Below, one piece after another: positions 15,372-64,000 of a DNA stretch of 64,000 nucleotides. The DNA comes from an uncultured bacterium. Its GTDB lineage: Bacteria > Arandabacterota > Arandabacteria > Arandabacterales > Arandabacteraceae. The stretch covers positions 36,699 through 100,698 of the forward strand of contig CAYHHI010000004.1 of NCBI GenBank assembly GCA_964356335.1. The letters are read 5' to 3'. The position numbers and the translations under genes are program-made. The notes beneath the pieces are model-generated. The model made no database searches. It had not been told where the DNA came from and saw only the letters and a list, made by a program, of their open reading frames with translations. Each line of letters opens with the position of its first letter. The first letter of the stretch is position 1.

Positions 15372-15430
15372 CCCCCGTGACAACTCTTCTTGCGCTCGCG
15401 GGTATAGTCATAGTGAAGGAGGTGATCGAG

Positions 15431-16486: not shown

Positions 16487-16499
16487 ACGGAGGGGGTGC

Positions 16500-40631: not shown

Positions 40632-40632
40632 G

Positions 40633-43538: not shown

Positions 43539-43578
43539 ACATACCTCCAGCCATAGAAACGCGATGTATTTCCTGAGA

Positions 43579-47405: not shown

Positions 47406-47558
47406 AAGCACACTCCTCAATCCTGCGTGATTAAGTTCCTTGCGTCTAAGGAATTTGTGTCTATGCTACAGCATAGCTGGCCCCACGATAAGACACAGCC
47501 GAGAAACTATAACAACGCATTCCTGCCTTGTCAACACCAAAACTGGTCAAGCCTGGGC

Positions 47559-47597
47559 AATAAAGAACCGGGGCTTCCACTGGTATGAAAGCCCCGG
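47559..47597 (-). terminator. intrinsic terminator downstream of the 1105-aa surface protein gene
   Basis: The minus strand reads GGGGCTTTCATACCAGTGGAAGCCCCGG with a 9-bp stem, followed by TTCTTTATT. It lies about 30 nt after the stop at 47623. Confidence 0.45.
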
Positions 47598-47622
47598 CCT
47601 CAATGCCTTGTAGGGTCTACTT

Positions 47623-50600: not shown

Positions 50601-50940
50601 ACTTGAAGCAGTTGGTGATGAACGGTGCTACTGTTCCGCATGTATCACCGACTCCTCCCTCCACGCACCAGGTCTGGGTAGGACCGGGCCCACCCGTCGC
50701 CTCACCACCGTGTCCTCCAAGCGGATCGCCAGGGCAGCGGGTACTATTAGCATGTACCTCTACCCATGTCGTATTTCCCGCCTGGACCATCACGAATGGC
50801 ATGGCTAAGGGCATCCCTCCCACCGCGTTAGCGGGCGGCAGAAGCGGCTTTGCCGGTTCCTGCATACCTAGTGCAACGGAGGCGAGCCCCATTACAAGGA
50901 CCCCCACTGCCACGATAGATACTGCTCTAAATCTCATCAT
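47623..50940 (-). CDS. very large secreted protein with a ThuA/class-I-glutamine-amidotransferase-like central domain and C-terminal T9SS-type sorting domain
   Basis: Its signal peptide is MMRFRAVSIVAVGVLVMGLASVALG, from the ATG at 50940 with GGAGGG upstream. Its central segment is GQKILLVDGHGRNLYDW...DYDAVVWFTGP...ADSGCVVLCGDRLAY. Its C-terminus is SGVYFYKMEADKYSAVKKMLVVK. Confidence 0.65.
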   Translation of the reverse strand: MMRFRAVSIVAVGVLVMGLASVALGMQEPAKPLLPPANAVGGMPLAMPFVMVQAGNTTWVEVHANSTRCPGDPLGGHGGEATGGPGPTQTWCVEGGVGDTCGTVAPFITNCFKYVDIRSLPSQTNVNYWHVDSYRTVPAPGGYTGTRALWCGSAAVWGAPPGKPVECGTWINPPGYGNQWNCIVELDLPSSFNVAGGCTLYFDPRYDTECKYDYLYVDYQQGVAGPPATTAWVTLAMFNATSNNPGGVCGAPSKPNPDNWGNTDVNRLANCNWQQRGTPGIPAYMGVITPAMWGTVTNAPKIRFRFKSDGAWSDMDGRGDTDGAAFVDNVWMVGDAGSAYTQDFELCSVFGALPQYWSLQQPSGVAQGWHLVHDPDPPYEGGDGGARTTCLLDSSWVWRARPENAFPPGSPQRQGFFYRLLTPKVKLANTGCIVQYDEFMCGKDITCDYTDTQVRFYDKVNQTWCPWINIDGYIMYGGCFFWNFDDWDNVTQFYGANNDSMQFGFDLLDTSNPGDMCYGKHKDTENLIDNVSIGFFDGTATQFSARGIDILHDTFFPQVAQAYNSFFDTYETDTLNKYSGASPPAPILPKGQQLYINCTDKNNLASVKIKASITNGATWIEKTMTLAVPADPLNLALGGEYYGTVQAGDFSPGAIAWTVGSEILYYVLAQDNLGNQAYFPARADPKNSAHNWTKDDYWGFSILPIVAPGVGEGQKILLVDGHGRNLYDWSPCLTDLDNTMPLEDIYERTLADAGYCYYDKFDISGAGSNQHIHPITFSDYDAVVWFTGPYFSNYLFDKEAQLALRAYLADSGCVVLCGDRLAYDMATQAEGGNGEDSLGGEFLNGIMGTDYLKEMEAGFTLPFVYMDAAATVNVRGSAVNIPTTALDTVVIYRECPYLKDMSYVLTSPSPKPGYTAQQFLRVTNPIGVPLADGAIYTEYQNGKGRCVYVNFDLCATVNHARTLCTGVTPAPAPDFAPGYYFGRVELLRTILYNLFGIVPNAMANVPGPTSPVAYVWGLRQNGPNPLSTGTKIDFEVASASKVSIKVYNAMGQLVQVLKDEQMKAGKHSVAWDGKNQVGERVSSGVYFYKMEADKYSAVKKMLVVK

Positions 50941-51165
50941 GGTCCAAACCCTCCGATGCGAAACTCGTTGCTGGCCAGTCTCCTGACTGACCATAGTACC
51001 CAAAGGGAAATCACTTGTTGTCGGACAGGTTCTTTCCCCACGCGGCAAACGGAAAATCGGAGGTACTTAAATCACTACAGCGTGTCTCCGTCTCACCCCC
51101 TTCCTTCAGCGAAGATCGCTGCAACCTTCAATCCACAATTGACACAATCACCCTACATCCGCCTA

Positions 51166-51340: not shown

Positions 51341-53287
51341 CTATTTTATGAAGCGCGAAAGGTCCGCAACCCAGATCTCATAGTCGTCTGGTACGGCTCC
51401 GCCGCGGCAGACCGAAATCGAAGCCACAAGCTTTGGAGGCTGACCCGGAAACCAGCCGACACGCTCGGGAATCCGCCAGCATTCGACATCGTCTCCGGCC
51501 TGACCCGGCAAGCCAATCACAATTGATTGCGCCTCACCGGTCCCGGCGAGAACCCCGGATACGTCACAGATGACGATCTCTCTCGAAATGTCCTGGCCCC
51601 TTATGAATGCAACATAATTGCCGTCAGGACTGAGAGCAGGCTCTGAGATGGGCAGGCTGCTAGTGGTAACCAGATACATCTTGTCGCCATCAACAGATGC
51701 CTCATTTCCAAGGTCCACCAGCCAGATGCCGTTGGTTGCACCCGCCGTCAGACTGCGGCTGGGCGCTAGCCGGGCACTCAAAGTCGAGGAGCGATGATTC
51801 GGTTCCGCTTGTCGGCTCCTCGCCGGCACGCCGGTACAATCCAGTGACACATAGGTGGTTTCACCGGGACGCACAGCGACAAAGGCTGTGTCGCTGCAAC
51901 GCGTCTTATTGACATCGGGGTTAGCAGCAAAAACAAAGTGCATGCCCGGAACCTGGCATTCTGTGAAGATGTAATCTGTGGACGAGGCCGGGGTGGGAGC
52001 ATCCAGCCAGCGACCATCGAGATTCACTAGCTTGCCCCCAGGATTCGAGCTCAGCCCCACAAGCCCGCACCTACAATCCAATGTCACATAAGTGGTCTCC
52101 CCGGCACGCACCGTGACATCGAGCGTGTCGCTACAGCGCTTCCCATCACTGACGTTTGCAGCAAAAGCAGTGTGAATGCCCGGAAGCAAGCATTTGAGCA
52201 GAATATACTCCGTGGACAAGTCCGGGGTACGCACACTCTGCAGGCGGCCGTCGAAGTAAACCAGCCTGACCCCGGGATTTGAGCTCAGCCCCACCGCCCC
52301 GCGTTCTTGCACAAAGTCAAGAACGATGGTGTTGAGCACATCGGGCTCCGGTATGATGCTGTCATACGGTTGAGTGCAATATTCAGGAAGTACTCCTCTT
52401 ACTTCAATCTTAGCCACTCCAGCCGGCCTGTATCTGAACGTATAGGGCGTGGTCTTGCCGGAATCCTTGGCATTCAAGAAAATCTCCGCGGATGCATCCG
52501 TCGTATCAGAATCCTGGCCAGGAGGGCCTACGACCTTACGGGCTGTGACCCTGATGTCGCCGACCTTGACCCTGTCAGGGGAGGCAAACGCAATCAGGCT
52601 GGTACCATTTCCCGCAGGTTGCTCATCCTTGAAAATGGCGCTGAGCACTCCATTCTCATCCTTGGCAAAGTCCGCCGGCTCACGGGAGATCCGCGTAAGA
52701 CGGTCACCCTGCGGATAACGCTTGACAAAGATATCAAAATTGACTCCGCCCACGGAGGAATTGCTGAACGCGATCCAGGTAGTATCGCCGATAACTGCCC
52801 AAGTCGGGCTCCAGCTCGAGTTAGGCAGGGACGCACGATCGGTCAATCGTTCAAGAGTACGAGCAGTCGCCGGCAATTCGAGATCGGTCACATCGACGAC
52901 GAATATGTCCGACTTGTCAAGGGAGCGTCTTTCAAACGCAATCCTAGTGCCATCAGGTGACCAGACAGGTTTGAAATCATCATAGGCATCGCATGTGATC
53001 TGATAGAACGTCGAATTGTCGCCTTCCTCTTCCGGCAACATAGCGACCCAGATGTGGTAAGATCCTTCGCAGATGCTTGTGTCGGTCTCCGGTGAAGTAA
53101 ATGCCACAAGCCTGGGATCAACGGGAGAAACGGCGGGAAAACGGCCGACCCTTCCGAATGCTTTCTGCCAGAAATCGCAATTGAGGCATTTGGGGCCAGC
53201 GCTCTTATCCTCTCCGCACGAGGTCAGAAGTAAGACCGAAAGCCCTATTACGAGTATGAGAATTGTGACCTTACGGGTGTTGCCCAA
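51341..53287 (-). CDS. TolB-like beta-propeller lipoprotein with an internal tandem duplication of a ~79-aa Cys-containing domain
   Basis: It has lipobox LLTSC. Its PD40-type blades include KPVWSPDGTRIAFERR, WSPTWAVIGDTTWIAFSNS and ALSPDGNYVAFIRG. It has two adjacent homologous units that each end CSDTxxVxVRxGETTYVxLDC. Confidence 0.7.
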   Translation of the reverse strand: MGNTRKVTILILVIGLSVLLLTSCGEDKSAGPKCLNCDFWQKAFGRVGRFPAVSPVDPRLVAFTSPETDTSICEGSYHIWVAMLPEEEGDNSTFYQITCDAYDDFKPVWSPDGTRIAFERRSLDKSDIFVVDVTDLELPATARTLERLTDRASLPNSSWSPTWAVIGDTTWIAFSNSSVGGVNFDIFVKRYPQGDRLTRISREPADFAKDENGVLSAIFKDEQPAGNGTSLIAFASPDRVKVGDIRVTARKVVGPPGQDSDTTDASAEIFLNAKDSGKTTPYTFRYRPAGVAKIEVRGVLPEYCTQPYDSIIPEPDVLNTIVLDFVQERGAVGLSSNPGVRLVYFDGRLQSVRTPDLSTEYILLKCLLPGIHTAFAANVSDGKRCSDTLDVTVRAGETTYVTLDCRCGLVGLSSNPGGKLVNLDGRWLDAPTPASSTDYIFTECQVPGMHFVFAANPDVNKTRCSDTAFVAVRPGETTYVSLDCTGVPARSRQAEPNHRSSTLSARLAPSRSLTAGATNGIWLVDLGNEASVDGDKMYLVTTSSLPISEPALSPDGNYVAFIRGQDISREIVICDVSGVLAGTGEAQSIVIGLPGQAGDDVECWRIPERVGWFPGQPPKLVASISVCRGGAVPDDYEIWVADLSRFIK

Positions 53288-53457: not shown

Positions 53458-55413
53458 ATGACCCGCAAACTCACTCTATCGGCGCTCTTTGCGTGGGTTG
53501 CACTAGTCGCGATAGCATTCGGTTTCTATCAGTTTGCAGGCCTTGTCAGAGCAAACCCATTCGGAGATTGCTTCGCCTCTGCTCTCAAGGTCCTGGCGGT
53601 GATGTTGGTGGCGGCCTCCATGGGACTCCGCCTAATCCCGGGCGCAAAGCCCTGTCTCAGAGACATCATGCTGGCCTCGGCGGTGGGACTTGCCCTGCTG
53701 GGAATCGCCACCTTCTTGCTCGGGACTGTTGGGCTGGTGAGACCCTACGTAATTTGGCCGGCCGTTGCCATGGTGGGGGCGATCTCGTACAGGCAGATCG
53801 GGCAGATGCTGGCGTGGCTCAGGCGGCTCGCGGTGCCGTCGCTTGATGTGTACGAGATGTGTTTCGCCGGCCTCATGGTTTTTGCGTCGCTTTTCGTGCT
53901 TGCGAACTGTCTCGCACCCATAACCGCAAACGATGCGCTCGTATATCACCTCAATCTCCCCAAGCTCTATGCGGCTGCCTCCGGTCTGGTGAGGCTGCCA
54001 TATAATGTATATGCCAACATGCCTCATTACGGCGAGGTGCTGTACACTCTCTTTTACTCGCTGGCGGGAGAGACCGGAGCCAGGATCTTCTACTTCCTGG
54101 TCGTCATGGGTGCCACGCTTTCCATCTATGTTCTGGCAAAGAGGTTCGCCCCTCGCAGGCTGGCTATGGCCGCAGCGGGCTTTTTCCTCGTGCAGCCTCT
54201 GGTACTTGATGACCGGATCATCTGCAATGTTGACATCCTGCTTGGATACCTTTATGTCTCCTCCGTCATTCTGCTCGTCGATCCACCGGGATTGAAGGCG
54301 AATCTCAGACAGATCCTGCCCGTCGCAGTTCTCGCAGGCTTCATGCTTGGGATCAAATACACGGCCATTGCCCCATGTCTATCGCTCCTGGTCATCCCCT
54401 TGGTCGGTTCCCCCAAGCGCCCCCGTCCGAGGAGATTTGTCATCGCAGGCCTGGTGGCCTTGGCTCTTTTTGCCCCCTGGCTCATAAAGAACCAGGTATA
54501 TGTCGGGAATCCCTTCTATCCTCTGGTTGAAAGCAAGCTTGACGGCTCAAACTGGGACGCGACCCAGGAGGCACAGCTCCTGAGTTGGCAGCGGGGCATG
54601 GGAATGGGCAGAACAGCCCTGAATTATCTTCTTCTGCCTTTCAATATAAGCACGAGGGGCAGGCCCGCAGCCAATTACACCAGGTTTGATGGCATCATGA
54701 CGCCGCTTTTCCTCATCCTGTTTCCGCTCGCTCTCCTCAGACGTCGAAAGGAAACCACTGCGCTAATCGTGATGGTACTGGCGACCTTCGTTTTCTGGGC
54801 ACTCACATCACAGCAGCTGCGTTTCCTCATTCCCACGATAGCCCTTGCAGCGGTGCTCGCGGCAGCCGGCCTCGCCAACCTGGCGGGCCTCGCCGGCGTA
54901 AGGCCGTCGAACTTTGTGCTCGGTCTTGCTATTCTTGTCACGGGCTCCACAATTGTCCTGCCCGATCAATTCGGGAGGCCCTTTGTGACAATCCCTATCA
55001 GCGCCACATCGCGGGTCGTGTTTGGCCTTGAACCCAGGCAACAGTACCTCGAAAGGAATTTTCAGGCGTTCAGCATGTGCGAGTACATCCGCACTAGCCT
55101 GCCTCCCCGCGAACCCATCTTCATGGTCTGGGAGAACCGCGGCTACTACCTTGACAACCCCTATTTTGCCGACAGCTTCTATGAGGCCTCAACCCTCATG
55201 CAAATCGTGGCGAGATCTCGGGACGCCGACGACCTCAAACAGATCATACGAGGGATGGGCTTCAGGTACGTTCTTGTCAATGAAATGCTGGGCGATGTCT
55301 TCTCGAGATTCTATCCGCCGGCAGAGGTCGCCAAGCTCAGGGAATTTATGAAGAACGATCTTGAAGCCGTTCATTCCGCAGCCAAGATCACGCTTTACAG
55401 GATCGCGCCTTAG
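53458..55413 (+). CDS. polytopic membrane protein, GT-C-like (ArnT/PMT-family-like) putative glycosyltransferase
   Basis: It has at least 12 TM segments. Its first loop has ANDALVYHLNLPKLY. Its C-terminal soluble domain ends ITLYRIAP, as in the 13474..15309 protein. AGGGAGAGG SD lies upstream. Confidence 0.5.
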   Translation: MTRKLTLSALFAWVALVAIAFGFYQFAGLVRANPFGDCFASALKVLAVMLVAASMGLRLIPGAKPCLRDIMLASAVGLALLGIATFLLGTVGLVRPYVIWPAVAMVGAISYRQIGQMLAWLRRLAVPSLDVYEMCFAGLMVFASLFVLANCLAPITANDALVYHLNLPKLYAAASGLVRLPYNVYANMPHYGEVLYTLFYSLAGETGARIFYFLVVMGATLSIYVLAKRFAPRRLAMAAAGFFLVQPLVLDDRIICNVDILLGYLYVSSVILLVDPPGLKANLRQILPVAVLAGFMLGIKYTAIAPCLSLLVIPLVGSPKRPRPRRFVIAGLVALALFAPWLIKNQVYVGNPFYPLVESKLDGSNWDATQEAQLLSWQRGMGMGRTALNYLLLPFNISTRGRPAANYTRFDGIMTPLFLILFPLALLRRRKETTALIVMVLATFVFWALTSQQLRFLIPTIALAAVLAAAGLANLAGLAGVRPSNFVLGLAILVTGSTIVLPDQFGRPFVTIPISATSRVVFGLEPRQQYLERNFQAFSMCEYIRTSLPPREPIFMVWENRGYYLDNPYFADSFYEASTLMQIVARSRDADDLKQIIRGMGFRYVLVNEMLGDVFSRFYPPAEVAKLREFMKNDLEAVHSAAKITLYRIAP

Positions 55414-55466
55414 GGCACGGGCTCTGCCACACCAGTGGTTCCTGAGTGCTGGGGTCGCTCACAGTT

Positions 55467-56798
55467 CTACTGGATGTAGCCCAAGGCTTTGAGTTTCTGC
55501 TTTACCTTATCATCCACCGGGGACCTCATGGGTTGGCCGGTCCGCCTGGGCTCTGTCTCATACGTGGGGATGAACTGGACGGGATTGGTCTTGAGGAATC
55601 CCGTGTCGAAGGCGTCTGTGATGACGCTGCCGTCCATGTCTCTCGCAACCGGGAGTCCCAGCGCATAGAGGATGGTCGGCGTGATATCGAGCACGTCAGC
55701 ATCAGGTATGTGTCCCCCCCTGCGCACGTCTTTGCCCATGAAGCCGACAATGCCGTACGGGCTGTGCATGTCAACACCGAGAAGGAGTGCCCCGTCGTCG
55801 GTATGCCAGGGGCCGCGGAAGCCATGATCGGACGCGATCACCAGCAGGGTTCTGTCGTCAACAAGGTTCATGAACTCGCCGAGGACTTTGTCAATCCACA
55901 CGTAATAGTTGTCTATCACCTTGTTGAGCGGGTGCGCCGCCTGCCCCCTGTAGTCCCAGCAGCTATGACACAGCGAGTCTATACCGTTGAAGTAGACCGC
56001 AAGAAACTGAACGCCTCTGCCTGCAAGCTCGAGGGCAATCCGCCTGAAGGTCTCATCCGTGGCGTAGACCATTTTGACATAGCCCTTGACCCATTCCAGG
56101 CCCGCCAGGGCGTCAGGGGGAGCCGTGACCGGGTAGAACTGCGATATGGTCTCATCGCTTACGTCGGCTTCAGAGAGCCTCAGGCTGTCTATCTCCTGGA
56201 AGAGGTCCTCCGGGTAGGTTTGCTTGTCCAGCTTTATGCCCTTTTCGTTCTCATACTGGATGTAGTCGCTCACGAGGTATCCATTGACAGGCTCAGCAGG
56301 CCAAGTGACCATCCACCCTACCACTCCGACCTTCATGCCCTTCTCGCCGAGGATGTCCCAGATGGCCTTCACTCGTCTCACATTGCCGGTGTAAGGGACC
56401 GAGTCGCCTTTAGCCACCGGTGCGAGGAAGCCGCCGATTCCATGCTTGTCAGGGAACATCCCTGTGGCGATTGAAGTCCAGATGATCGGCGACTTCTGCA
56501 GAGGGTCGAGCGTCGCGAGCTTTCCCGTAGCGCCCCGCGAGACTAGCCTCGAGAGGTTAGGGAGTCTGCCCTCGTCAAGCAAGGGCTTGATCAGGTTCCA
56601 GTCGGCAGCATCAATCCCCACGAAGATGACCTTGGTAGGATGCTTCACCTTGGGTGAGCACGCGGGCCCCAAGGCGAGAAGAGCGACCGAGCACAGGGCG
56701 AGCAAAGTTCTCGCCAGGCTCAGGCTCTTGCCCCCGGCCGCTGCGCATGTCGCTCGTGTGCTCGGCAGGCGCCTCTCCAGCACTGGTCGCGCCGTCAT
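55467..56798 (-). CDS. alkaline-phosphatase-superfamily enzyme (type I phosphodiesterase/nucleotide pyrophosphatase-like), probable lipoprotein
   Basis: It has VIFVGIDAADWNLI (metal-binding Asp) near the start of the mature protein and LLVIASDHGF near the C-terminus. The signal is ARTLLALCSVALLALGPAC. The ATG at 56798 is preferred over the upstream extension. Confidence 0.7.
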   Translation of the reverse strand: MTARPVLERRLPSTRATCAAAGGKSLSLARTLLALCSVALLALGPACSPKVKHPTKVIFVGIDAADWNLIKPLLDEGRLPNLSRLVSRGATGKLATLDPLQKSPIIWTSIATGMFPDKHGIGGFLAPVAKGDSVPYTGNVRRVKAIWDILGEKGMKVGVVGWMVTWPAEPVNGYLVSDYIQYENEKGIKLDKQTYPEDLFQEIDSLRLSEADVSDETISQFYPVTAPPDALAGLEWVKGYVKMVYATDETFRRIALELAGRGVQFLAVYFNGIDSLCHSCWDYRGQAAHPLNKVIDNYYVWIDKVLGEFMNLVDDRTLLVIASDHGFRGPWHTDDGALLLGVDMHSPYGIVGFMGKDVRRGGHIPDADVLDITPTILYALGLPVARDMDGSVITDAFDTGFLKTNPVQFIPTYETEPRRTGQPMRSPVDDKVKQKLKALGYIQ

Positions 56799-56900
56799 TG
56801 GATTTGTTGCCACCTGGCTTGTTGCCACTGGCCTTGCTCCCATCGGCCTTCCTGCGCCCATGACACCACGTATCAACACCGGGTTCTTCTGCGAATCGAC

Positions 56901-59291
56901 CTAATTCCCCCGGCCAGTTGACTTGGCCTCCAGATCCTTCAGATGATTGCGCAGCTCAGGAGTTCCCCCCGTGAGCTCAATGTAACGCTTGAGGTGAGAG
57001 GCTGCGCGGCCATAGTCCTTGAGGTGCTCTTCATAGCACATGGCAAGGTTGATGTGCGCAGCACTTGAAGTGGGATCAACCCTGAGTTCGTCCTCGAATT
57101 CGCGGCAGGCAAGACTTATGTCTCCCTTGCGATAGGCGATCACGCCCCTCGCAAAGTGCGCGCCGTTATGAGTCGGTGCGGCTTTCAGGAGACGATCGAA
57201 CTGCGCCATGGCCCGGTCAAGGTCTCCCATGTCGAAATACACGCTTCCTGCCTGGAAGCGTGCCGCACCTGACAGGCTGTCCGTCTCGATCGCCCGCATG
57301 TACGCATCGAGTGCTCTCGCCGTAAGTCCTAAGGATGCGAGGTTGTCGCCTCGCAGAAGATACTGGTCAGAGAGCCGCTGGTAGCCACGCTGCCGAGAGG
57401 CGATCCATGCTTGCCTCTCAGGAAGAAGCTTAAGGAGGGATTCTACTTGAGTATTCGACTGCTGGTTGAGTGTGGCATCGTTCTTGAGCGCCCCAAGCAG
57501 AGAAGCTGCCTCCTGGAGATTTGCCATCTCGTAGTATGCGCCTGCTTTGGCCAGATTGGCAAGACTGTACCCAGGATTCAGGGCAAGCGCCCGGTCAAGC
57601 ATGACGACGGCGGAATCGTTCTTGCCTGTCTCCGCATAGACCAGACCCAGGTTATAGAAAGCCTTGTCGTAGTCCGGATCGCGCACGGTCGCATCTCTGA
57701 GTTCTTTTTCGGCCTCCTCGTATTTCCCCTGCCGCGAGAGGAGAATACCGAGGTTCACATGGGCTTGAGCGATTGCCGGATCGATCTCAAGTGCCTTCTT
57801 ATAATTGGCAAGCGCCGAGGCCTGATCACCCTTGCCTTCATAGATGATGCCAAGCCTGTAGTAGGATTGGGCAAAACCGTTGAGGGGATGTATCCTGTAG
57901 AAGTTGATGTGGACCAGGACGAAGAGAGCGAAGAAACCCACAAGCGAATAGGCGATCGGCTTCCAGCGCCCGTCAGCGCCCGCTGATATAAGCCAGAACA
58001 GGTAATAGGCGGCGAAGACCATCAGCACAGGGACCATGGGCAGCCTGTACCTTGCGACGACGAAGAAAGTGATGATGCCGGCCGAATAGGCAAGGATGAA
58101 AAGCAGAAACAGCCATGCCTCCTTCCGGCGCCGGAGCGCGAGTGCGATTCCCACGATGCCAAGGGGACAGACCATGCCGAAAGAGGGCGTAGGAATCCTC
58201 AGGATGCGTGAGTACTGTCTTTCAAACGGCAGATGCTCGATCTGGGGTATCTCGTAGACCGACCAGAAAAAGAAGAATTTTCGAACCATGTTGTAGGCGA
58301 AGGCGCCGGGATCCCGGCGGATGAAGTCGAGCGCCCGCCTCTTCCACCAGGCCGATACTGCCGACGGCTTGAGCTCGTGCCCAACTGCGCGCTCGGCGAG
58401 TACCTTGCCCTCAGGATCGGTGTAGATGTCGAGGCCATCGGGCTTCACATATGCGCCTGTGGCCTTGGCACTGTTGCCGATATAGAAGTTGAGCCCGGCA
58501 TTGGAAGTGAGCGGCACGAGATCTCTTCCGACCGCATAATTACGGATCATGATGGGAGTCACGATCGCGGCGATACCCACTGCGAAGAGCACGGCTTTGC
58601 GGATACGGGCATCGAGCGGGGAGCTTCCATATAGAACGATGAAGCCGAGGGCAAGAGGTGCAAAGGCAAGGATGCTAGCGTTGCCCGCTGCCGAGAGGCC
58701 CGCGAACACGCCGGCAAGCAAGAAGGCGCCCATGCTCTCCCGCACCACACCCCGGTAGAGGAAATAGAGCATGAGTGTATTGAGGAGAGTCGCCAGCACC
58801 GGAAGAAGAATCAGCGTATCCGTGAATATGAAAGGCACGTACAGCGCTGCCAGAAGTCCTGCGATCGCCCCGACACCTACTCCGAAAGCCTCCCTGCCCA
58901 GAAGATAAACTACCCCTGCCGTAAAGGCGCCGACAATGCTCTGCACGAGTTTCGCAGCAAGCAGGCTGGGCCCAAAGATCTTGTAGATCACGCCAAGGAA
59001 GTAGGGATAGAGCGGCCCCATGAAGAAGGCTTCGTTTCCTACCCAGTCCCCGGCCGCGATTCTCTTGGCCCAGGAATCATAGAACTTGGTGTCGAGATCG
59101 AGATGATCGAAGAAAGGGCTCCCGCGCGAGGCAAGCGTATAAGCAAGCCGAATGGCGGCAGCAAGCGCGACCAAGAATATGAAGTAGAATGTGACTGACC
59201 GATATACTCTGCGCCCCTGCTGGGGTCCCTGTGTCTCGGGACGTTCCAGAGGGGGTTTACGTTTTGATCCCGAATCTGATCTGGAGCCCAT
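56901..59291 (-). CDS. TMTC-like protein: N-terminal GT-C-type multi-pass domain fused to C-terminal tetratricopeptide repeats
   Basis: Its first 450 aa are polytopic. It then has at least 8 TPR units, for example AFYNLGLVYAETGKNDSAVVMLDRALALNP and AHFARGVIAYRKGDISLACREFEDELRVDP. Confidence 0.7.
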   Translation of the reverse strand: MGSRSDSGSKRKPPLERPETQGPQQGRRVYRSVTFYFIFLVALAAAIRLAYTLASRGSPFFDHLDLDTKFYDSWAKRIAAGDWVGNEAFFMGPLYPYFLGVIYKIFGPSLLAAKLVQSIVGAFTAGVVYLLGREAFGVGVGAIAGLLAALYVPFIFTDTLILLPVLATLLNTLMLYFLYRGVVRESMGAFLLAGVFAGLSAAGNASILAFAPLALGFIVLYGSSPLDARIRKAVLFAVGIAAIVTPIMIRNYAVGRDLVPLTSNAGLNFYIGNSAKATGAYVKPDGLDIYTDPEGKVLAERAVGHELKPSAVSAWWKRRALDFIRRDPGAFAYNMVRKFFFFWSVYEIPQIEHLPFERQYSRILRIPTPSFGMVCPLGIVGIALALRRRKEAWLFLLFILAYSAGIITFFVVARYRLPMVPVLMVFAAYYLFWLISAGADGRWKPIAYSLVGFFALFVLVHINFYRIHPLNGFAQSYYRLGIIYEGKGDQASALANYKKALEIDPAIAQAHVNLGILLSRQGKYEEAEKELRDATVRDPDYDKAFYNLGLVYAETGKNDSAVVMLDRALALNPGYSLANLAKAGAYYEMANLQEAASLLGALKNDATLNQQSNTQVESLLKLLPERQAWIASRQRGYQRLSDQYLLRGDNLASLGLTARALDAYMRAIETDSLSGAARFQAGSVYFDMGDLDRAMAQFDRLLKAAPTHNGAHFARGVIAYRKGDISLACREFEDELRVDPTSSAAHINLAMCYEEHLKDYGRAASHLKRYIELTGGTPELRNHLKDLEAKSTGRGN

Positions 59292-62200
59292 ACAGGATAC
59301 CGGCGAGGAGCCCTAAACAGGTCACTATGAGCCCCAGACTTAAGGTCCCCGGCTTGAATTCCATGATGACCCTGTGATCTCCTCTGCCGATCTCGATCGC
59401 TCGCGTGCCGACATCGGTCAAGAGGATCTCTGCGCGCTTTCCGTCAACTGATGCCTTCCAGCCAGGGTAGTAAGCATCCTGGACAATGAGGAAGGCGTCG
59501 CGGTCGGGAGACACTTCGATCTCGACCTTCTCAGGCTTGTAGGATACGATCTCGCTCTTGCCGCATCGCATATTAGGAAGGTCGGCGAGCCTCTCCCCTA
59601 TCTTCAGAATGCGCGAGCCATCGGCCGCGCCGAGGCGAACCTCAGACGCCGCGACGCAAAACACTTTTTCCATGGCTGCAGCATTCTCATAGATGTACAT
59701 GTCCCCGGTATAGATGAGGTCGTATCCGGTTGCCTCAGGATGCGGCCCGTAAACCAGGCGGCTTGCCAGGAGGCTGAAGCTCGAGTCCGATCTCACCAGT
59801 AGCCTGTCAACCGCTTTTTCTCCGAGATCGACCATCACCCTTCTCATTCTTAGATAAGGCGGGAAGCTCACCCGGCGCAACAGTTTTCCAGAACTACTCT
59901 GTATCTCAAGCGGCACTTCCCTGGCAGGGCCCGCAATCTCCAGGCTGAGTGCCGCTTTTTTCTCGTCGGTGCGCCCGGGGTAGACTACGTAACCTCCGCT
60001 CGCTTTCTCAAAGGCACAGTCACTTAACACAAACTCGAACCCACCCCAGCCCGCAAGAGCATCGTGACGAACGCCCGAGTCATCAGCCGTAGGACTGACT
60101 AGAGCCTTGGCAGCGCCCGCCCCGACGGGTAGAACCGCAAGCGCGAGCCTGCCGTATCCGGCGCCTACCGAAGCGACATCGAGGCTTCCCTCGTACCAGC
60201 GCCCGCCTCCGGAAGAGACGCCGAGGCTTCTGCGGAATTCGGCCTCCCCGGTCGGGCTCTCCCAGATGACTACGAAGGCCATGGAGTCGACATCGCTGGG
60301 GACCCCCTCAAAGCCGAAGAAGAAATCGATTCGCGCCCGAGAAGGAATATAGGTGTCCACGCTCAGCGTTTCCCCTGCTCTCTGGCAGAAGGCCAGCCGG
60401 CCTTCGCCGCCCAGATTGAGAATCTTGAAGTCTCGCAGCACGCCTTCCCTCTTGGCGGTCACCTCTTTCGCGACTGCCTGGAAGACAGAAGATGGAGTGA
60501 GCGTGGGATCAAACCCGCTCCTGAGGAGGTATCTTACAGACATGAGTCCGGCCAGTTCTGGGGTTGGGCCAGGGCCTTCAAATATCCGCCCGCGCTGTGC
60601 CGCCCCCGCCTCCTGCCCCGTCTCGAGGAAGTATGCGTATGCCCTCGGCATTATTGTCGATCTACCCCGCAATGACTCGAGGCCAAAGAGCTGATTTGTG
60701 TTGGGCGGAAGAACCCAAGTACCAGATTCCTCATTGAGGGTGCGCCACTCGCCCTTGGTGCCTGCCGCCTCGCGCAAGACCTTTATGCCTTCGGTCTCGA
60801 AGACACTCCGGGAGGGCTCGCTGACATAATAGGTTCTGGCGACCAGTACGATGTCCGCCGTGACCCATAGAACGAACAGGAGACTCGCCAAACCTGCAAG
60901 GCGCTTCCTGCGGGACGAAGCCAGGCCGCAGACCAGCAGCAGAGCCCAGCTCACCGAGGCAAGGATGAGGCCGCGTACGATTTGCATCTTCTCATAAGCG
61001 AGCCACTCCGGCCCCCGACCTTGCACCCACTCCACGATCCTCTCCGATCCTACCGCAGACCAGGTTTTCCCGAGCAAGGCGTGTGACTTCTCGATGAGGC
61101 GCGAGGCTATGCCGTCCCCGCCAAATGCAAAGATGATCGATCCCGCCACCAGGAAGACAACGACCGCACCTGCCACGGCAAGGAAGACCCGCTTCGATCG
61201 CCGGTCCGGAGTGGACGCGAGGAGGGAGAGACTCTTGCCGGCCAGGGCTGCAATCGCAAAGCATGCCATCACCGATATCCGATCTATCTGGGAATATCTG
61301 AAGAGCGGTATCGCAGCATAGACCACCTTCAGGAGGAAGCCACTGGTCCCGATTCCTACGCTCAAGAGGAGGATGAGAAGGAGCCCTCGTACATGCTCGG
61401 ACTGCCTGATGAAAGCCAACCCACCCAGGGTGGCCATGAGCGTGCCCACGCCGCAATAAACCATGAAGCCGAGATTATACGGGTGCGCGCCTTGCTGGAT
61501 CAGGGGCACCCAGTTTGTGCCCTCAACCGGATTGCCGAAGAAACCGGGCAGGACCACGCGCAAGAGCATGACAGGTTTGGAGACATACAGTTGCCTCATC
61601 TGGTCAAGGCCGATGCCAAGCCCCACCGAATTCCTCAAGAATTCCCAGAAGGGAATGAGGTGAACGGCAACCACCAGGAGGGCAAGGCCACCGGAGATGC
61701 CGATCGTCCGGGCCGACGCCAGCAACTGCCCGCGAGCGCCACGCACACGCTGGTCGAGGGCCAAGCTCAGAGCATAGATCACAAGCCCTGCGACCCCAAA
61801 GATAAACACCTGGGGAAATCCTGAGAGGTATCCCATCACGAAGAACGCTGCAAGCATGATGGTGCCGGTGCGCTCACTCCGGCGGGCTCGCTCAAAGCCG
61901 TAAAAGAGAAACGGGATCCAAGCTGCAGAGGCGACAAACGTGGGATGGCCCATCCTGTTCGCGAAGAAGGATGAGAAGCCGAAGGCAAACGCACCCAGAA
62001 TCGCACCCGGCGTTGAGGCGGCAATCGTCCGGAGGAAAAGATACATGCCTATGATTGCGAGCAAGAAATGCACTGCGACATCGTACCCCATGGCCTTCTC
62101 GGCATTGAAAGGAACCAAGAGAAGCGAGATGGGATAGAGCACCCGCGACTGAGGATCGGCGAAGAAGGGTGCGCCGGTCAGGATGGAAGGATTCCAGAGG

Positions 62201-62433
62201 GGAAACCTCCCTGAGGCGATGCTCTGAGAGAGCTCGGCGCGCCGCGGCAAGTACGTGAGAATGGAATCCATCCTGTACGTCCTTCTGTGGAGATCCTGCT
62301 CGCCGGCGTAACTGCGCCAGGGATCGTAAAGCGATGGATTTGCCGTAAGAAGAACCTTGCCGCCAAGAATGACGTCGAAGAAAAAACCGAGGACAACAAT
62401 CACGAATATGGCGATCACAAGCGTGGTTTTCAT
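59257..62433 (-). CDS. very large polytopic membrane protein, YfhO-like (GT-C superfamily) candidate
   Basis: 1058 aa. Its N-terminal loop is DPWRSY...HRRTYRMDSILTYLPRR...GRFPLWNPSILTGAPFFADPQSRVLYP. It has many TM helices and a large C-terminal extracytoplasmic domain. It overlaps the TMTC-like gene by 35 nt. Confidence 0.5.
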   Translation of the reverse strand: MKTTLVIAIFVIVVLGFFFDVILGGKVLLTANPSLYDPWRSYAGEQDLHRRTYRMDSILTYLPRRAELSQSIASGRFPLWNPSILTGAPFFADPQSRVLYPISLLLVPFNAEKAMGYDVAVHFLLAIIGMYLFLRTIAASTPGAILGAFAFGFSSFFANRMGHPTFVASAAWIPFLFYGFERARRSERTGTIMLAAFFVMGYLSGFPQVFIFGVAGLVIYALSLALDQRVRGARGQLLASARTIGISGGLALLVVAVHLIPFWEFLRNSVGLGIGLDQMRQLYVSKPVMLLRVVLPGFFGNPVEGTNWVPLIQQGAHPYNLGFMVYCGVGTLMATLGGLAFIRQSEHVRGLLLILLLSVGIGTSGFLLKVVYAAIPLFRYSQIDRISVMACFAIAALAGKSLSLLASTPDRRSKRVFLAVAGAVVVFLVAGSIIFAFGGDGIASRLIEKSHALLGKTWSAVGSERIVEWVQGRGPEWLAYEKMQIVRGLILASVSWALLLVCGLASSRRKRLAGLASLLFVLWVTADIVLVARTYYVSEPSRSVFETEGIKVLREAAGTKGEWRTLNEESGTWVLPPNTNQLFGLESLRGRSTIMPRAYAYFLETGQEAGAAQRGRIFEGPGPTPELAGLMSVRYLLRSGFDPTLTPSSVFQAVAKEVTAKREGVLRDFKILNLGGEGRLAFCQRAGETLSVDTYIPSRARIDFFFGFEGVPSDVDSMAFVVIWESPTGEAEFRRSLGVSSGGGRWYEGSLDVASVGAGYGRLALAVLPVGAGAAKALVSPTADDSGVRHDALAGWGGFEFVLSDCAFEKASGGYVVYPGRTDEKKAALSLEIAGPAREVPLEIQSSSGKLLRRVSFPPYLRMRRVMVDLGEKAVDRLLVRSDSSFSLLASRLVYGPHPEATGYDLIYTGDMYIYENAAAMEKVFCVAASEVRLGAADGSRILKIGERLADLPNMRCGKSEIVSYKPEKVEIEVSPDRDAFLIVQDAYYPGWKASVDGKRAEILLTDVGTRAIEIGRGDHRVIMEFKPGTLSLGLIVTCLGLLAGILYGLQIRFGIKT

Positions 62434-63419
62434 GATTCGGGATGAGTCGGGGCTGGCTCTCGGGATTTTCCCAGACTCCTCATGCCATAGAGAACTCCGC
62501 CAATGACGGCAAACACGAAGAACACAGCATACACAACGATACCGAACGAGAAGCCCAGGCTGTCCTCAACTCCGAATTGCCTCAGCATCATAACAAACGC
62601 CGCCTCTCTCACACCGATGCCGCTTATGGAAACGGGTATCATCCTCATAAGCTCGACTATGGGAACCACGAGCAGCAAGCCGGCAACGCTGAGTCTCAGG
62701 GAGAAGGCTCTGGCGATGAAGTAACAGGCCAAGATCCAGAGTAGTCTTGAGAGGACCGAGAGGACAAGTCCACCCAATACGGCGCGCCTGGAATTCTTGT
62801 AGATGACGATCGATGTGTAAACACGCTCGAGCCTCGTCCTCGCCTTGAATCTCTTCAGCAGGTCGAAGACCGGATTCAGGACATGCGAGAAAGTCCTGGC
62901 CACGGGCCTCAGGAGGAGGATCAGGAAACCCACAAGAAGCACCACCCCGACCGCCTCGGCAGTGAGAATCATCTTCCATTCTTTGAGCTCGCCGGCCACA
63001 AAAGGTATGGCGATCAAGCTCACGGGCAAGAGAACAAAGAAACCCATGATGCGTTCGACCACGATGGATGCGACGGCGTCCGCTTTCTTCTCCGTCGCGG
63101 TAGAGACGGCGACTATTCGTGCGAAATCTCCCCCCACGCTTGTCGGTAGGAAGGCGCTGAAGAAGATGCTCACCAGATAGTAGTAGACCAACTTGGTCAT
63201 CCTGATCGTGATACCTCTTGCGCGAAGCAGAACGCTCCATCTCCAGGCCTGGGTAACGATCATCAAGAAGTCCAGGCCTGCCGCAAGAACCAGCGGCAAG
63301 AGGGCCAGCCCCTTGAGGTGAGCGGCGATCCGGCCCACATCAAGCCTCACGATAAGAAACACGATCAGGCCTGCGCTCACCAAGAGCCTCACGATTTTTA
63401 GGACCACGGAAGTCTTCAT
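62430..63419 (-). CDS. flippase-like membrane protein (LPG_synthase_TM / MprF TM-domain family)
   Basis: 329 aa with 8 TM segments. Its N-terminus is MKTSVVLKIVRLLVSAGLIVFLIVRLDV...AWRWSVLL. It has ATGA overlaps with both neighbours. Confidence 0.6.
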   Translation of the reverse strand: MKTSVVLKIVRLLVSAGLIVFLIVRLDVGRIAAHLKGLALLPLVLAAGLDFLMIVTQAWRWSVLLRARGITIRMTKLVYYYLVSIFFSAFLPTSVGGDFARIVAVSTATEKKADAVASIVVERIMGFFVLLPVSLIAIPFVAGELKEWKMILTAEAVGVVLLVGFLILLLRPVARTFSHVLNPVFDLLKRFKARTRLERVYTSIVIYKNSRRAVLGGLVLSVLSRLLWILACYFIARAFSLRLSVAGLLLVVPIVELMRMIPVSISGIGVREAAFVMMLRQFGVEDSLGFSFGIVVYAVFFVFAVIGGVLYGMRSLGKSREPAPTHPES

Positions 63420-64000
63420 GGCTTCTTTCGAAGAACCTTTACCCAGCCTATGCCGTCGACCATCACATAGTTCTGGAGTATCCAGTCCCGCACCGGCCCG
63501 GCATACTCACTGAAACTTTCCGACGTCTGGCCGATCTTCGCTCCCTCAAATGGTTCGGTGAGGAGAATGTAATTGGTGCCATGGGATTTTATGTCATCGA
63601 TGTATCGCTGCTCCTCCTCCCCCGAGAGTCTTCTCCTGTAGTGCGCATATCGGGTCGGGTTTCTTCTGTCGAAGAGGAAGTATAACGTTTGAAGCTGTGG
63701 GACTGCCAGCACATACTCGCCCGGCGAAGTGTCGGCATCCAGGAACCTCTTGATCCCCGAGAAGAACCTGGCTTCCCCGGGAGTGACATACACGGGTGCC
63801 CTCTTGAGATCGAGCCCGGTGTTGTTTCCGACTCTCACGAGCACCGATCCCAGATACTCGCTGTCGCCGACGCTCAAGCCCTCCTTCTGGAACCTGGCAC
63901 CTATCCCGGGGTTGGTTGTAGCGAGCGTGCAGGCGACAGTGACCCAGACGAGAGCCAGGGGAGCCCCCAGGAGTAGGACATATTTCAGCGCCAGGGACCC
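63416..64000 (-). CDS. hypothetical secreted/lipoprotein, 5' end beyond window
   Basis: The ORF is open to the window end. Its N-terminal region (...SLALKYVLLLGAPLALVWVTVAC...) looks like a signal peptide with lipobox. Its stop overlaps the next gene's start. Confidence 0.4.
   Translation of the reverse strand, partial: GSLALKYVLLLGAPLALVWVTVACTLATTNPGIGARFQKEGLSVGDSEYLGSVLVRVGNNTGLDLKRAPVYVTPGEARFFSGIKRFLDADTSPGEYVLAVPQLQTLYFLFDRRNPTRYAHYRRRLSGEEEQRYIDDIKSHGTNYILLTEPFEGAKIGQTSESFSEYAGPVRDWILQNYVMVDGIGWVKVLRKKP

What the first reader, a model, noticed from the sequence alone, without database searches (positions are those of the whole stretch)
55467..64000. Envelope glycoconjugate operon: lipoprotein, MprF-type flippase, YfhO-like and TMTC-like putative GT-C enzymes, AP-superfamily transferase
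Five consecutive minus-strand genes have 4-35-nt overlaps. They combine a flippase-like TM domain, two very large polytopic membrane proteins that I read as GT-C-type (these typically use polyprenyl-phosphate-linked sugars outside the membrane), one of them carrying TPR repeats like eukaryotic TMTC O-mannosyltransferases, and a lipid-anchored alkaline-phosphatase-superfamily enzyme. A further GT-C-like gene lies divergently. This is the composition expected for an extracytoplasmic protein- or polymer-glycosylation/decoration pathway. I do not know its substrate. It may glycosylate the T9SS cargo or a surface layer.
Basis: partly seen in the sequence, partly recalled or inferred. Interest (0 to 1): 0.6.

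Follow-up and report, generated by a model that had tools for sequence, protein, structure and literature searches.

The report
Multi-enzyme periplasmic sugar-attachment operon
This is the downstream half of a conserved gene cluster in an uncultured Eisenbacteria-like bacterium that most likely flips a lipid-linked sugar across the inner membrane and uses several membrane glycosyltransferases to build or decorate an unknown envelope glycan; it is a new variant of a well-known kind of system.

Summary
All proposed HMMs score above Pfam's cut-offs: YfhO, PMT_2 plus TPR, LPG_synthase_TM and PF01663.

Three details are wrong:
- The 5'-most "lipoprotein" is the C-terminal 194 aa of a ~545-aa PMT_2-like GT-C gene cut by the window end.
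- The extra GT-C gene is convergent, not divergent.
- The last junction is a gap, not an overlap.

The window holds only the 3' half of the operon. In about 24 related loci the order is glyS, cytoplasmic AP enzyme, GT2, short YfhO, PMT_2, PF03706 flippase, second YfhO, TPR-GT-C and AP lipoprotein. A convergent GT-C, a PD40 lipoprotein and a T9SS cargo protein follow. A core of this order is shared with Gemmatimonadota.

- The GT2 resembles ArnC, DPMS and GtrB.
- Acidic residues in the first external loop are conserved in four GT-C families checked; catalytic residues are conserved in the GT2 and both AP enzymes.

Best reading: a polyprenyl-phosphate-sugar-dependent periplasmic glycosylation assembly line. 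The sugar and acceptor are unknown. I rate it a new variant of a known kind, of moderate interest.

The parts
63416..64000 (-). 3' end (C-terminal 194 aa) of a ~545-aa PMT_2-like GT-C membrane glycosyltransferase, cut by the window end. It is not a lipoprotein.
   Evidence: The frame is open to base 64000. It is 77% identical to the C-terminus of the 545-aa protein of L001, which hits PF13231 at 27.8 bits against a cut-off of 26.1. The close relative L082 has a 545-aa gene at this position. A D34-E35 pair and a basic C-terminal motif (DRRNPTRYAHYRRR) are conserved in 27 orthologues.
62430..63419 (-). Stand-alone PF03706 (LPG_synthase_TM / UPF0104 / COG0392) polytopic membrane protein of 329 aa. 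Predicted flippase for the lipid-linked sugar.
   Evidence: PF03706 143.7 bits over residues 9-307. TIGR00374 'flippase-like domain' 68.4 bits against a cut-off of 43.2. There is no aminoacyl-PG synthase domain. It lies between two GT-C genes in every Eisenbacteria-type locus that covers the position.
59257..62433 (-). Long YfhO-family GT-C glycosyltransferase of 1058 aa. It has a membrane domain of about 535 aa, a periplasmic beta-rich domain with a ~250-aa CBM-like insert (residues ~640-890), and a C-terminal membrane helix.
56901..59291 (-). PMT_2-type GT-C domain (11 predicted membrane helices) fused to a C-terminal TPR domain predicted to be periplasmic; 796 aa.
   Evidence: PF13231 45.2 bits plus TPR_1/2/8/11/16 and others from residue 474. 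D67 and D72 in the first external loop are conserved in 21 orthologues. Eleven hydrophobic cores with alternating K/R loops place the N-terminus inside and the TPRs outside. There is no DUF1736 hit.
55467..56879 (-). Alkaline-phosphatase-superfamily (PF01663, NPP-type) lipoprotein. The likely true start is the ATG at 56798.
   Evidence: PF01663 90.5 bits. A lipobox Cys is present in nearly all orthologues with a readable N-terminus. D34, S74, D245, H249, D295, H296 and H316 are invariant in alignment A2, which is an NPP-type two-metal site with a Ser nucleophile. AF2 model pLDDT 83.1. Foldseek best hits are NPPs and sulfatases at 13-16% identity.
53458..55413 (+). Fifth GT-C-type protein (PMT_2 hit, LIC_10190-like; 651 aa). 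It is convergent with the operon and syntenic with it.
   Evidence: PF13231 38.6 bits. NF047510 scores 59.1 bits, below its cut-off of 100. It is present on the opposite strand at this position in all 11 Eisenbacteria-type loci that reach it, and in the rearranged group L025, L094, L095 and L097. D159, Y163 and H164 are conserved.
51341..53287 (-). PD40 (TolB-like beta-propeller repeat) lipoprotein of 648 aa. Conserved neighbour; a possible partner or acceptor.
   Evidence: PF07676 40.4 bits. N-terminal LLLTSC lipobox. Syntenic in Eisenbacteria-type, rearranged and Gemmatimonadota-type loci.
42054..51048 (-). Conserved neighbouring surface-protein block: a 1141-aa T9SS cargo protein (47623-51048), two paralogous lipoproteins of 528 aa (45834-47420) and 752 aa (43579-45837), and a 516-aa T9SS-tail protein (42054-43604). 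The association with the operon is by synteny only.
   Evidence: Por_Secre_tail hits. Cargo orthologues align over their whole available length in L002, L011, L015, L020, L024, L082, L094 and L095. The two lipoproteins follow PD40 in Gemmatimonadota-type loci at 23-29% identity over the full length.

Best explanation
The window holds the 3' half of a conserved operon of about 8 genes, plus a convergent gene. Together they encode a multi-component transmembrane glycosylation pathway.

Proposed steps:
1. A small soluble GT2 loads one sugar from a nucleotide sugar onto polyprenyl (undecaprenyl) phosphate at the cytoplasmic face. This gene is not in the window and is inferred from relatives.
2. 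The PF03706 protein flips the polyprenyl-phosphate-sugar to the periplasmic leaflet. This is inferred.
3. Four operon-encoded GT-C enzymes (short YfhO, PMT_2-545, long YfhO, TPR-PMT_2) and a fifth convergent one each transfer that sugar to a different acceptor position. The GT-C fold and the conserved acidic residues of the first external loop are shown. Activity is inferred.
4. Several GT-Cs draw on a single donor synthase, and the long YfhO carries CBM-like modules as AftD does. I therefore favour stepwise periplasmic assembly or branching of a glycan chain. That could be a lipoglycan, a polysaccharide or a protein-linked oligosaccharide. The TPR-bearing enzyme is the likeliest to recognise a protein or lipoprotein partner.
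5. The NPP-type lipoprotein acts on a phosphodiester in the periplasm. It either trims or transfers a phospho-substituent of the product, or it releases carrier lipid. Its cytoplasmic paralogue next to the GT2 may do the same at the inner face. Both roles are speculative.

The operon overlaps the stop codon of glyS in two lineages, so it looks like a constitutive core envelope function rather than an accessory island.
For: - Family assignments are above curated thresholds.
- Acidic residues of the first external loop are conserved in four GT-C families: D56/D93 in the long YfhO (invariant), and D67/D72, D34-E35 and D73 at >=95%. LIC651 has a conserved D159 whose loop placement was not checked.
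- The operon is collinear in about 24 loci at 36-99% identity. A core of APc, GT2, PMT_2, YfhO, TPR-GT-C, APl and PD40 is also present in Gemmatimonadota-type loci.
- The close relative L082 (94-99% identical) shows a short YfhO and PMT_2-545 directly upstream of the window end.
- The GT2 is closest to ArnC (1e-20), P. furiosus DPMS (8e-16) and GtrB (3e-12) in the PDB. In NCBIfam it is closest to ArnC, PgfS, PpgS and dolichyl-phosphate hexose transferase. It keeps D100-x-D102.
- PF03706 proteins have been predicted to be glycolipid or dolichyl-sugar flippases, and they neighbour a GT2 and a GT-C in archaea (PMC5898192; also GpgF in PMC12713373).
- The three-part logic of GT-A, flippase and GT-C is established for YfhO and PMT_2 enzymes (PMC5836110, PMC8035078).
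- Both AP enzymes keep full catalytic sites.
- 4-nt overlaps couple the genes to each other, and couple the first operon gene to glyS.
Against: - There is no experimental data for any member of this cluster.
- The GT2 and three other genes are not in the window. Their presence in this genome rests on synteny, and only two of them are seen in the 94-99% relative.
- PF03706 has never been shown to flip a polyprenyl-phosphate-sugar. The Gemmatimonadota version of the locus lacks it, so it may not be essential.
- Only one of the five GT-Cs was modelled.
- The sugar, the acceptor and the AP enzymes' reaction are unknown.
- The neighbouring proteins have no Ser/Thr-rich tracts like those on streptococcal YfhO substrates.
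- Promoter and terminator scans were uninformative.
Confidence: 0.75

Rival explanations
1. This is a dedicated protein O-glycosylation system, like TMTC/PMT or streptococcal Pgf/PgtC2. Its substrates would be the co-located surface proteins: the PD40 lipoprotein, the T9SS cargo protein and the two lipoproteins. The TPR domain would select folded protein acceptors.
For: - The TPR domain is predicted to be periplasmic on an 11-helix GT-C, the same topology as TMTCs (PMC7801869).
- YfhO-family enzymes do glycosylate proteins, and in S. mutans the pgf genes sit next to their adhesin substrates (PMC12041528).
- PD40, the T9SS cargo protein and the lipoproteins stay next to the operon across phylum-level distances.
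Against: - Five GT-Cs are many for simple protein O-glycosylation.
- The long YfhO carries CBM-like rather than protein-binding modules.
- The neighbours have no Ser/Thr-rich tracts (at most 9 S/T in 25 residues).
- There is no DUF1736 loop or DD motif.
Confidence: 0.2
2. This is a lipid A or LPS-core decoration module, analogous to ArnC/ArnEF/ArnT plus an EptA-type phosphotransferase.
For: - The GT2's best solved relative is ArnC.
- PMT_2 is the Pfam family that also holds ArnT-like enzymes. JGI labels some TPR-GT-C homologues 'Ara4N transferase-like'.
- The pairing of an AP-superfamily enzyme with a GT-C recalls the pairing of Ara4N and phosphoethanolamine modifications. This is from my own knowledge.
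Against: - There are no Ara4N-precursor genes (ArnA, ArnB, ArnD) in the window or the related loci.
- The AP enzymes are PF01663 lipoprotein or soluble forms. They are not PF00884 enzymes with a membrane domain, as EptA and LtaS are.
- Five GT-Cs exceed what lipid A decoration needs.
- The locus is coupled to glyS rather than to a stress regulon.
Confidence: 0.1
3. The genes are neighbours without a shared pathway, or the GT-C-like proteins are non-catalytic scaffolds or transporters.
For: No function has been shown for any of them. Several Pfam matches cover only part of the protein.
Against: - Gene order is collinear and the genes overlap across about 24 loci down to 36% identity.
- Putative catalytic residues are conserved in every enzyme.
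- The modelled protein has a GT-C fold.
Confidence: 0.04

Closest known systems
CsbB / GtcA / YfhO teichoic-acid glycosylation systems of Firmicutes ('multi-component transmembrane glycosylation systems', PMC5836110, PMC8035078)
   Same: A GT2 that makes a C55-P-sugar, a flippase, and a YfhO- or PMT_2-type GT-C that acts outside the membrane. The YfhO Pfam family is shared. The extracytoplasmic domain is suspected to bind carbohydrate.
   Different: - The host here is a diderm FCB-group organism with no teichoic acids expected.
- There are five GT-Cs instead of one.
- The flippase candidate is PF03706, not GtrA or Wzx.
- The GT2 has no membrane helices.
- Two AP-superfamily enzymes belong to the conserved core.
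Streptococcal protein O-glycosylation: PgfS/PgfM1/PgfM2/PgfE and GtrB/PgtC2 (PMC12041528)
   Same: A GT2 works with YfhO-family GT-Cs. Two YfhO paralogues sit in one operon. The machinery is encoded next to candidate surface-protein substrates. There is weak NCBIfam similarity to PgfS, PgfM1 and PgfM2.
   Different: The scores are far below the equivalog cut-offs (18-75 bits against 500-1500). The neighbours have no Ser/Thr-rich acceptor tracts. This locus has additional PMT_2, TPR and AP components.
Mycobacterial Ppm1 plus the Mpt/Aft/Emb GT-C arrays that build lipomannan, LAM and arabinogalactan; AftD in particular
Eukaryotic TMTC1-4 O-mannosyltransferases (PMC7801869)
   Same: An N-terminal 11-helix GT-C domain with an acidic first external loop, a long TM7-TM8 external loop, and a C-terminal TPR domain on the non-cytoplasmic side.
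   Different: There is no DUF1736 match and no DD or SHKSYRP motif. The acidic residues are D67...D72. The Pfam match is PMT_2.
PF03706 / COG0392 proteins: the MprF flippase domain, E. coli YbhN (PplT), the AglD C-terminal domain, GpgF (PMC5898192, 10.1101/2022.03.11.483950, PMC12713373)
   Same: A full-length PF03706 match. Archaeal members sit in neighbourhoods with an AglD-like GT2 and a PMT/STT3-like GT-C, the same triad as here.
   Different: There is no fused synthase or GT domain. The proposed cargo, a polyprenyl-phosphate-sugar, is unproven for any member. Here the protein is embedded among four GT-C genes in a bacterium.
AP-superfamily enzymes of envelope pathways: NPPs (PF01663), and LtaS/GacH/EptA/OpgB (PF00884)
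   Same: The AP-superfamily fold and a two-metal site with a Ser/Thr nucleophile. The association with a glycopolymer-modification locus resembles GacH in the group A carbohydrate locus; that comparison is from my own knowledge.
   Different: Identity to any solved structure is 13-16%. There is no membrane domain: one copy is lipid-anchored and the other cytoplasmic. The substrate is unknown.

Membership tests
YfhO family (PF09586) GT-C glycosyltransferases | Pfam PF09586 match above the gathering score | tested here: met
   50.0 bits against a cut-off of 28.5. The match covers mainly the C-terminal residues 962-1038. DUF6044 matches the N-terminal membrane part.
YfhO family (PF09586) GT-C glycosyltransferases | GT-C fold: a polytopic N-terminal domain with conserved acidic residues in the first external loop, and a large extracytoplasmic domain | tested here: met
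YfhO family (PF09586) GT-C glycosyltransferases | Transfers a sugar from C55-P-sugar to an extracytoplasmic acceptor | not testable with these tools
   This needs biochemistry or genetics.
Three-component / multi-component transmembrane glycosylation system | A GT-A (GT2) polyprenyl-phosphate sugar synthase encoded with the GT-C | tested here: inconclusive
   It is not in the window. A 240-aa GT2 is present in every related locus that extends far enough upstream: L001, L002, L010, L011, L015, L017, L018, L020, L024, L083, L087 and L090. Its closest relatives are ArnC, DPMS and GtrB. The 94-99% relative L082 ends before that position.
Three-component / multi-component transmembrane glycosylation system | A flippase for the lipid-linked sugar (GtrA, Wzx or ArnEF type in known systems) | tested here: inconclusive
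   No GtrA or Wzx gene was found in the locus. A PF03706 'flippase-like' protein occupies the operon instead. Its cargo is unproven.
Three-component / multi-component transmembrane glycosylation system | A GT-C enzyme as the final transferase | tested here: met
   There are four GT-C genes in the window, one of them truncated, and a fifth upstream in relatives.
TMTC family (eukaryotic O-mannosyltransferases) | DUF1736 (TM7-TM8 loop) match, and the DD motif in the first external loop | tested here: not met
   There is no DUF1736 hit at E<=0.01. The conserved acidic residues are D67 and D72, which are not adjacent.
TMTC family (eukaryotic O-mannosyltransferases) | An 11-helix GT-C domain followed by TPRs on the luminal/periplasmic side | tested here: met
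   There are eleven hydrophobic cores. The K/R counts of the loops alternate (8.2, 1.0, 2.8, 2.5, 3.9 and 3.0 inside; about 0 in the short outside loops). TPRs start at residue 474. This is a prediction from hydropathy only.
PMT / GT39 protein O-mannosyltransferases | PF02366 (PMT) match and a luminal MIR domain | tested here: not met
   Only PF13231 (PMT_2) is matched. No PF02366 or MIR hit was found in any of the window proteins.
MprF (aminoacyl-phosphatidylglycerol synthase/flippase) | A PF03706 membrane domain fused to the C-terminal aminoacyl-PG synthase domain (DUF2156/PF09924) | tested here: not met
   The protein is 329 aa, and PF03706 covers residues 9-307. There is no second domain.
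NPP / type I phosphodiesterase (PF01663), alkaline-phosphatase superfamily | A Pfam match above threshold and a complete two-metal site with a Ser/Thr nucleophile | tested here: met
   90.5 bits against a cut-off of 23. D34, S74, D245, H249, D295, H296 and H316 are invariant in 32 sequences. Foldseek top hits are NPPs.
LIC_10190 family membrane protein (NF047510) | An NCBIfam score above the curated cut-off | tested here: not met
   59.1 bits against a cut-off of 100 for the 651-aa convergent gene. It is similar but not a member.

The most novel reading that the evidence does not exclude
The cluster is a periplasmic assembly line for a phosphodiester-containing glycan. The glycan could be a phosphomannan-like lipoglycan or an anchor glycan for T9SS-secreted and lipoprotein surface proteins of Eisenbacteria and Gemmatimonadota. 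In this reading several GT-Cs make different linkages from one polyprenyl-phosphate-sugar. The NPP-type AP enzymes use that same lipid phosphodiester, or a phospholipid, as donor to transfer sugar-phosphate or another phospho-group. That would be a reaction class known so far only for the membrane-embedded PF00884 enzymes LtaS, EptA and GacH.
Probability: 0.1. Interest if true: 0.75.

Novelty: new variant of a known kind. Interest (0 to 1): 0.4.

Why it matters
Extracytoplasmic glycosylation from polyprenyl-phosphate sugars is well worked out in Firmicutes, mycobacteria and enterobacteria. It is unexplored in the uncultured FCB-group phyla.

- This locus is a candidate core envelope pathway of Eisenbacteria and Gemmatimonadota. 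It is conserved, coupled to glyS, and always next to T9SS cargo and lipoprotein genes.
- If it is characterised, it could reveal a new envelope glycan.
- It would test whether PF03706 proteins flip polyprenyl-linked sugars. That idea was predicted in 2015 and I know of no direct test.
- It could assign a role to a large orphan branch of NPP-like AP-superfamily enzymes (COG3379).
- Cultured Gemmatimonas species may carry a related version of the locus (their genomes were not examined here); if so, the question is experimentally approachable.

Tried and rejected
- Exact-sequence look-ups of three window proteins to extend past base 64000 found nothing on record. I used the 94-99% relative L082 and more distant loci instead.
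- Cluster look-up gave no accession or organism name for the source contig.
- Sigma-70 promoter and intrinsic-terminator scans over 53000-64000 gave counts equal to the shuffled expectation. They neither support nor contradict a single transcript.
- Sequence search of the PDB found nothing for the long YfhO or the flippase, and only marginal hits for both AP enzymes.
- Pfam at E<=10 found no family for the ~250-aa YfhO insert or for the C-terminal domain fragment of the truncated GT-C.
- A library-wide phmmer search with the insert found it only in long YfhO proteins, so it gives no clue to ligand.
- A search for Ser/Thr-rich tracts in the neighbouring surface proteins, the streptococcal type of YfhO substrate, was negative.
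- Literature searches for COG3379, Eisenbacteria plus YfhO, and Gemmatimonadetes plus GT-C found no description of this cluster.
- I considered and rejected TMTC, GT39 and MprF membership because defining features are not met (see the membership test).
- I rejected the NCBI-style 757-aa start for the TPR-GT-C. It would cut helix 1, and orthologues and the JGI call support 796 aa.


Full report
**What is in the window.** Bases 55467-64000 carry five consecutive minus-strand ORFs. Pfam places four of them above the curated gathering scores.
- 55467-56879: PF01663 type I phosphodiesterase, 90.5 bits against a cut-off of 23.
- 56901-59291: PMT_2, 45.2 against 26.1, followed by a long TPR array from residue 474.
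- 59257-62433: YfhO, 50.0 against 28.5, plus DUF6044, 28.3 against 27.
- 62430-63419: LPG_synthase_TM, 143.7 against 33.4. It also matches TIGR00374 'flippase-like domain'.
- The plus-strand gene 53458-55413 is a further PMT_2 protein, 38.6 bits.

The rest of the window holds metabolic, regulatory and secreted-protease genes and no other glycosylation genes.

**Corrections to the observation.**
- The 5'-most ORF is not a lipoprotein. Its frame is open to base 64000. Its 194 residues are 77% identical to the C-terminus of a 545-aa polytopic PMT_2-like protein found at the same position in relatives. The hydrophobic stretch ending in Cys is that protein's last membrane helix.
- The TPR-GT-C and AP genes do not overlap. 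The gap is at least 21 nt, and about 100 nt if the ATG at 56798 is used.
- The 651-aa GT-C gene is convergent with the operon, not divergent.
- The AP enzyme is a lipoprotein. A Cys at the lipobox position is present in nearly all orthologues with a readable N-terminus.

**The operon continues beyond the window and is conserved.** The organism is an uncultured relative of Candidatus Eisenbacteria. The best species-representative match is JAZDEY010000056, with 57% identity for the YfhO protein. A JGI contig (L082) is 94-99% identical across the region. It shows a short YfhO and the 545-aa PMT_2 gene directly upstream of the window end.

I called ORFs in 97 fetched loci and classified them by BLASTP. 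About 24 Eisenbacteria-type loci, at 36-99% identity, share this order wherever the contig allows:

glyS, AP enzyme (569 aa, no signal peptide), GT2 (240 aa), short YfhO (~805 aa), PMT_2 (~545 aa), PF03706, second YfhO (~810 or ~1040 aa), TPR-GT-C (~800 aa), AP lipoprotein (~420 aa), 651-aa GT-C on the opposite strand, PD40 lipoprotein, T9SS cargo protein.

No locus breaks this order.
- A second group (L025, L094, L095, L097) has the same genes rearranged.
- Gemmatimonadota-type loci have this order: glyS, AP lipoprotein, DUF3604, cytoplasmic AP, GT2, PMT_2, YfhO, AP, TPR-GT-C, AP lipoprotein, PD40, and then the two lipoproteins that also follow in the window. They have no PF03706 gene.
- The first operon gene overlaps the glyS stop codon by 4 nt in both the Eisenbacteria type and the Gemmatimonadota type.

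**Are these really GT-C enzymes with a lipid-linked donor?**
- An AlphaFold model of the 1058-aa YfhO protein, built on 25 homologues, reached pLDDT 84.5 and pTM 0.85.
- Sequence search alone finds no solved relative.
- Acidic residues in the loop after helix 1 are conserved in four GT-C families (LIC651 has a conserved D159 whose loop placement was not checked):

| Protein | Conserved residues |
|---|---|
| Long YfhO | D56, D93, D118, H122 (invariant) |
| Short YfhO | D73 |
| TPR-GT-C | D67, D72 |
| PMT_2-545 | D34-E35 |
| 651-aa protein | D159 |

- The GT2 of the relatives is closest to ArnC (1e-20), P. furiosus DPMS (8e-16) and GtrB (3e-12) among solved structures. In NCBIfam its best sub-threshold matches are mostly polyprenyl-phosphate glycosyltransferases: ArnC, PgfS, PpgS, dolichyl-phosphate hexose transferase and AglJ. 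It keeps D100-x-D102. It has no membrane helix. In that respect it resembles GacI- or DPM1-type enzymes, which need a membrane partner (PMC8035078).

**The other parts.**
- *TPR-GT-C.* It has eleven hydrophobic cores, and the K/R content of its loops alternates cleanly. This places the N-terminus inside. The first loop, the long TM7-TM8 loop and the TPR domain fall outside. This is the topology described for TMTCs (PMC7801869). However, there is no DUF1736 match and no DD motif, so the protein is TMTC-like in architecture only.
- *PF03706 protein.* It is a stand-alone domain of 329 aa and is not MprF. Members of this family have been predicted to flip glycolipids or dolichyl-sugars, and in archaea they neighbour an AglD-like GT2 and a PMT/STT3-like GT-C (PMC5898192). 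GpgF and YbhN are further unproven examples (PMC12713373; 10.1101/2022.03.11.483950).
- *AP lipoprotein.* It keeps an NPP-type two-metal site with a Ser nucleophile: D34, S74, D245, H249, D295, H296 and H316. Its model (pLDDT 83.1) matches NPPs and sulfatases only at 13-16% identity.
- *Cytoplasmic AP enzyme.* It has more conserved positions than any other protein aligned: 155 positions at >=95% in 22 sequences. It keeps D15, T54, D218, H222, D275, H276 and H472.
- *The AP family as a whole.* Gemmatimonadota-type loci carry four AP-superfamily genes plus DUF3604. I therefore take phosphoester chemistry to be part of the core pathway, not an accessory.

**The long YfhO.** Compared with the ~810-aa orthologues at the same operon position in sister lineages, the window protein has an insert of about 250 aa at residues ~640-890. 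It folds as beta-sandwiches in the model. A phmmer search of 1.84 billion representatives found the insert in only 46 proteins; all at full length are long YfhO proteins, the rest look like fragments. Pfam sees nothing in it. Long YfhO proteins also occur as stand-alone paralogues at about 40% identity, several per genome.

**Mechanism I commit to.** I give 0.75 to the general scheme below.
1. The GT2 loads one sugar onto polyprenyl phosphate.
2. The PF03706 protein flips it to the periplasmic leaflet.
3. Five GT-Cs transfer it to different acceptor positions in the periplasm.
4. NPP-type enzymes process a phosphodiester.

The GT-C fold, the conserved residues and the synteny are shown. The GT2's presence in this genome, the flipping step, the transfer activity and every substrate are inferred.

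Within this scheme I favour stepwise building or branching of a glycan chain. The reasons are the many GT-Cs on one donor, the CBM-like modules, and AftD as the best structural match. The TPR enzyme is the likeliest to contact a protein or lipoprotein.

Hydrolases that release undecaprenyl phosphate from Und-P-sugars at the cytoplasmic face are known (UshA and UpsH, PMC11898649). They offer one possible role for the cytoplasmic AP enzyme next to the GT2.

**Rivals.**
- *Dedicated protein O-glycosylation of the co-located surface proteins (0.2).* Conserved adjacency supports it. So does the S. mutans precedent, where the pgf genes sit beside their adhesin substrates (PMC12041528). Against it, the neighbours have no Ser/Thr-rich tracts.
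- *Lipid A or LPS-core decoration of the Arn/Ept kind (0.1).* No Ara4N-precursor genes are present, and the AP enzymes are of the wrong type.
- *No shared pathway (0.04).* Synteny and conserved catalytic residues contradict it.

**Novelty and score.** The logic of a GT2, a flippase and a GT-C is textbook for YfhO and PMT_2 enzymes (PMC5836110, PMC8035078). The combination here is not described in the searched literature. It comprises five GT-Cs, a PF03706 flippase candidate, two orphan NPP-like enzymes, coupling to glyS, and fixed adjacency to PD40, T9SS cargo and lipoprotein genes across Eisenbacteria and Gemmatimonadota. I rate it a new variant of a known kind, with interest 0.4. A specialist would not be surprised by the kind of system. 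It does point to an unknown core envelope glycan in poorly studied phyla, and it would be testable in cultured Gemmatimonas if they carry the locus.

Noticed in passing
window 42054-51048 (minus strand): A block of surface proteins has no Pfam family apart from T9SS C-terminal sorting domains. It comprises a 1141-aa cargo protein, two lipoproteins of 528 and 752 aa that are paralogous to each other (about 27% identity over the N-terminal 200 aa), and a 516-aa T9SS-tail protein. The block keeps its place next to the glycosylation operon across phylum-level distances.
   Followed up: partly
window 51341-53287 (minus strand): The PD40-repeat lipoprotein contains two copies of a ~90-aa module (GLSSNPG...DGR...CSDT...VR.GETTYV.LDC). 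It is syntenic with the operon in all lineages examined. Its role is unknown.
   Followed up: partly
L003-L009, L012, L022, L023, L028: Stand-alone paralogues of the long (~1040-aa) YfhO protein, about 40% identical, occur several times per MAG. For example, three are in Meg22_46_Bin_89 and three in SRP185410_co2_431. They lie outside any glycosylation operon, which indicates a lineage-specific expansion.
   Followed up: no
L026, L027, L029, L031, L032, L034 (Gemmatimonadota-type loci): This version of the locus has four AP-superfamily genes and a DUF3604 gene but no PF03706 gene. Like the Eisenbacteria version, it starts 4 nt inside the glyS stop codon.
   Followed up: partly
window 56901-59291: The NCBI copy of this protein (P0241) is annotated as 757 aa. 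It starts 39 residues later than the 796-aa ORF and the JGI call, which would remove most of membrane helix 1. This is probably a start-codon miscall in the public record.
   Followed up: partly
window 39169-41967 (minus strand): A class-III aminotransferase, a DUF4438 protein and an HD-domain protein lie in a row. It looks like a small uncharacterised metabolic cluster.
   Followed up: no
window 15377-17855 (plus strand): An ARPP-1 domain protein (PF20208) is followed by a VWA-domain protein, then by a histidine kinase and response regulator pair.
   Followed up: no
L001 2429-4138 and orthologues (upstream of the window): The 569-aa cytoplasmic NPP-like enzyme (COG3379 type) has more conserved positions than any other protein aligned, and it is always translationally coupled to the GT2. 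No paper in the searched library describes a function for this family.
   Followed up: partly
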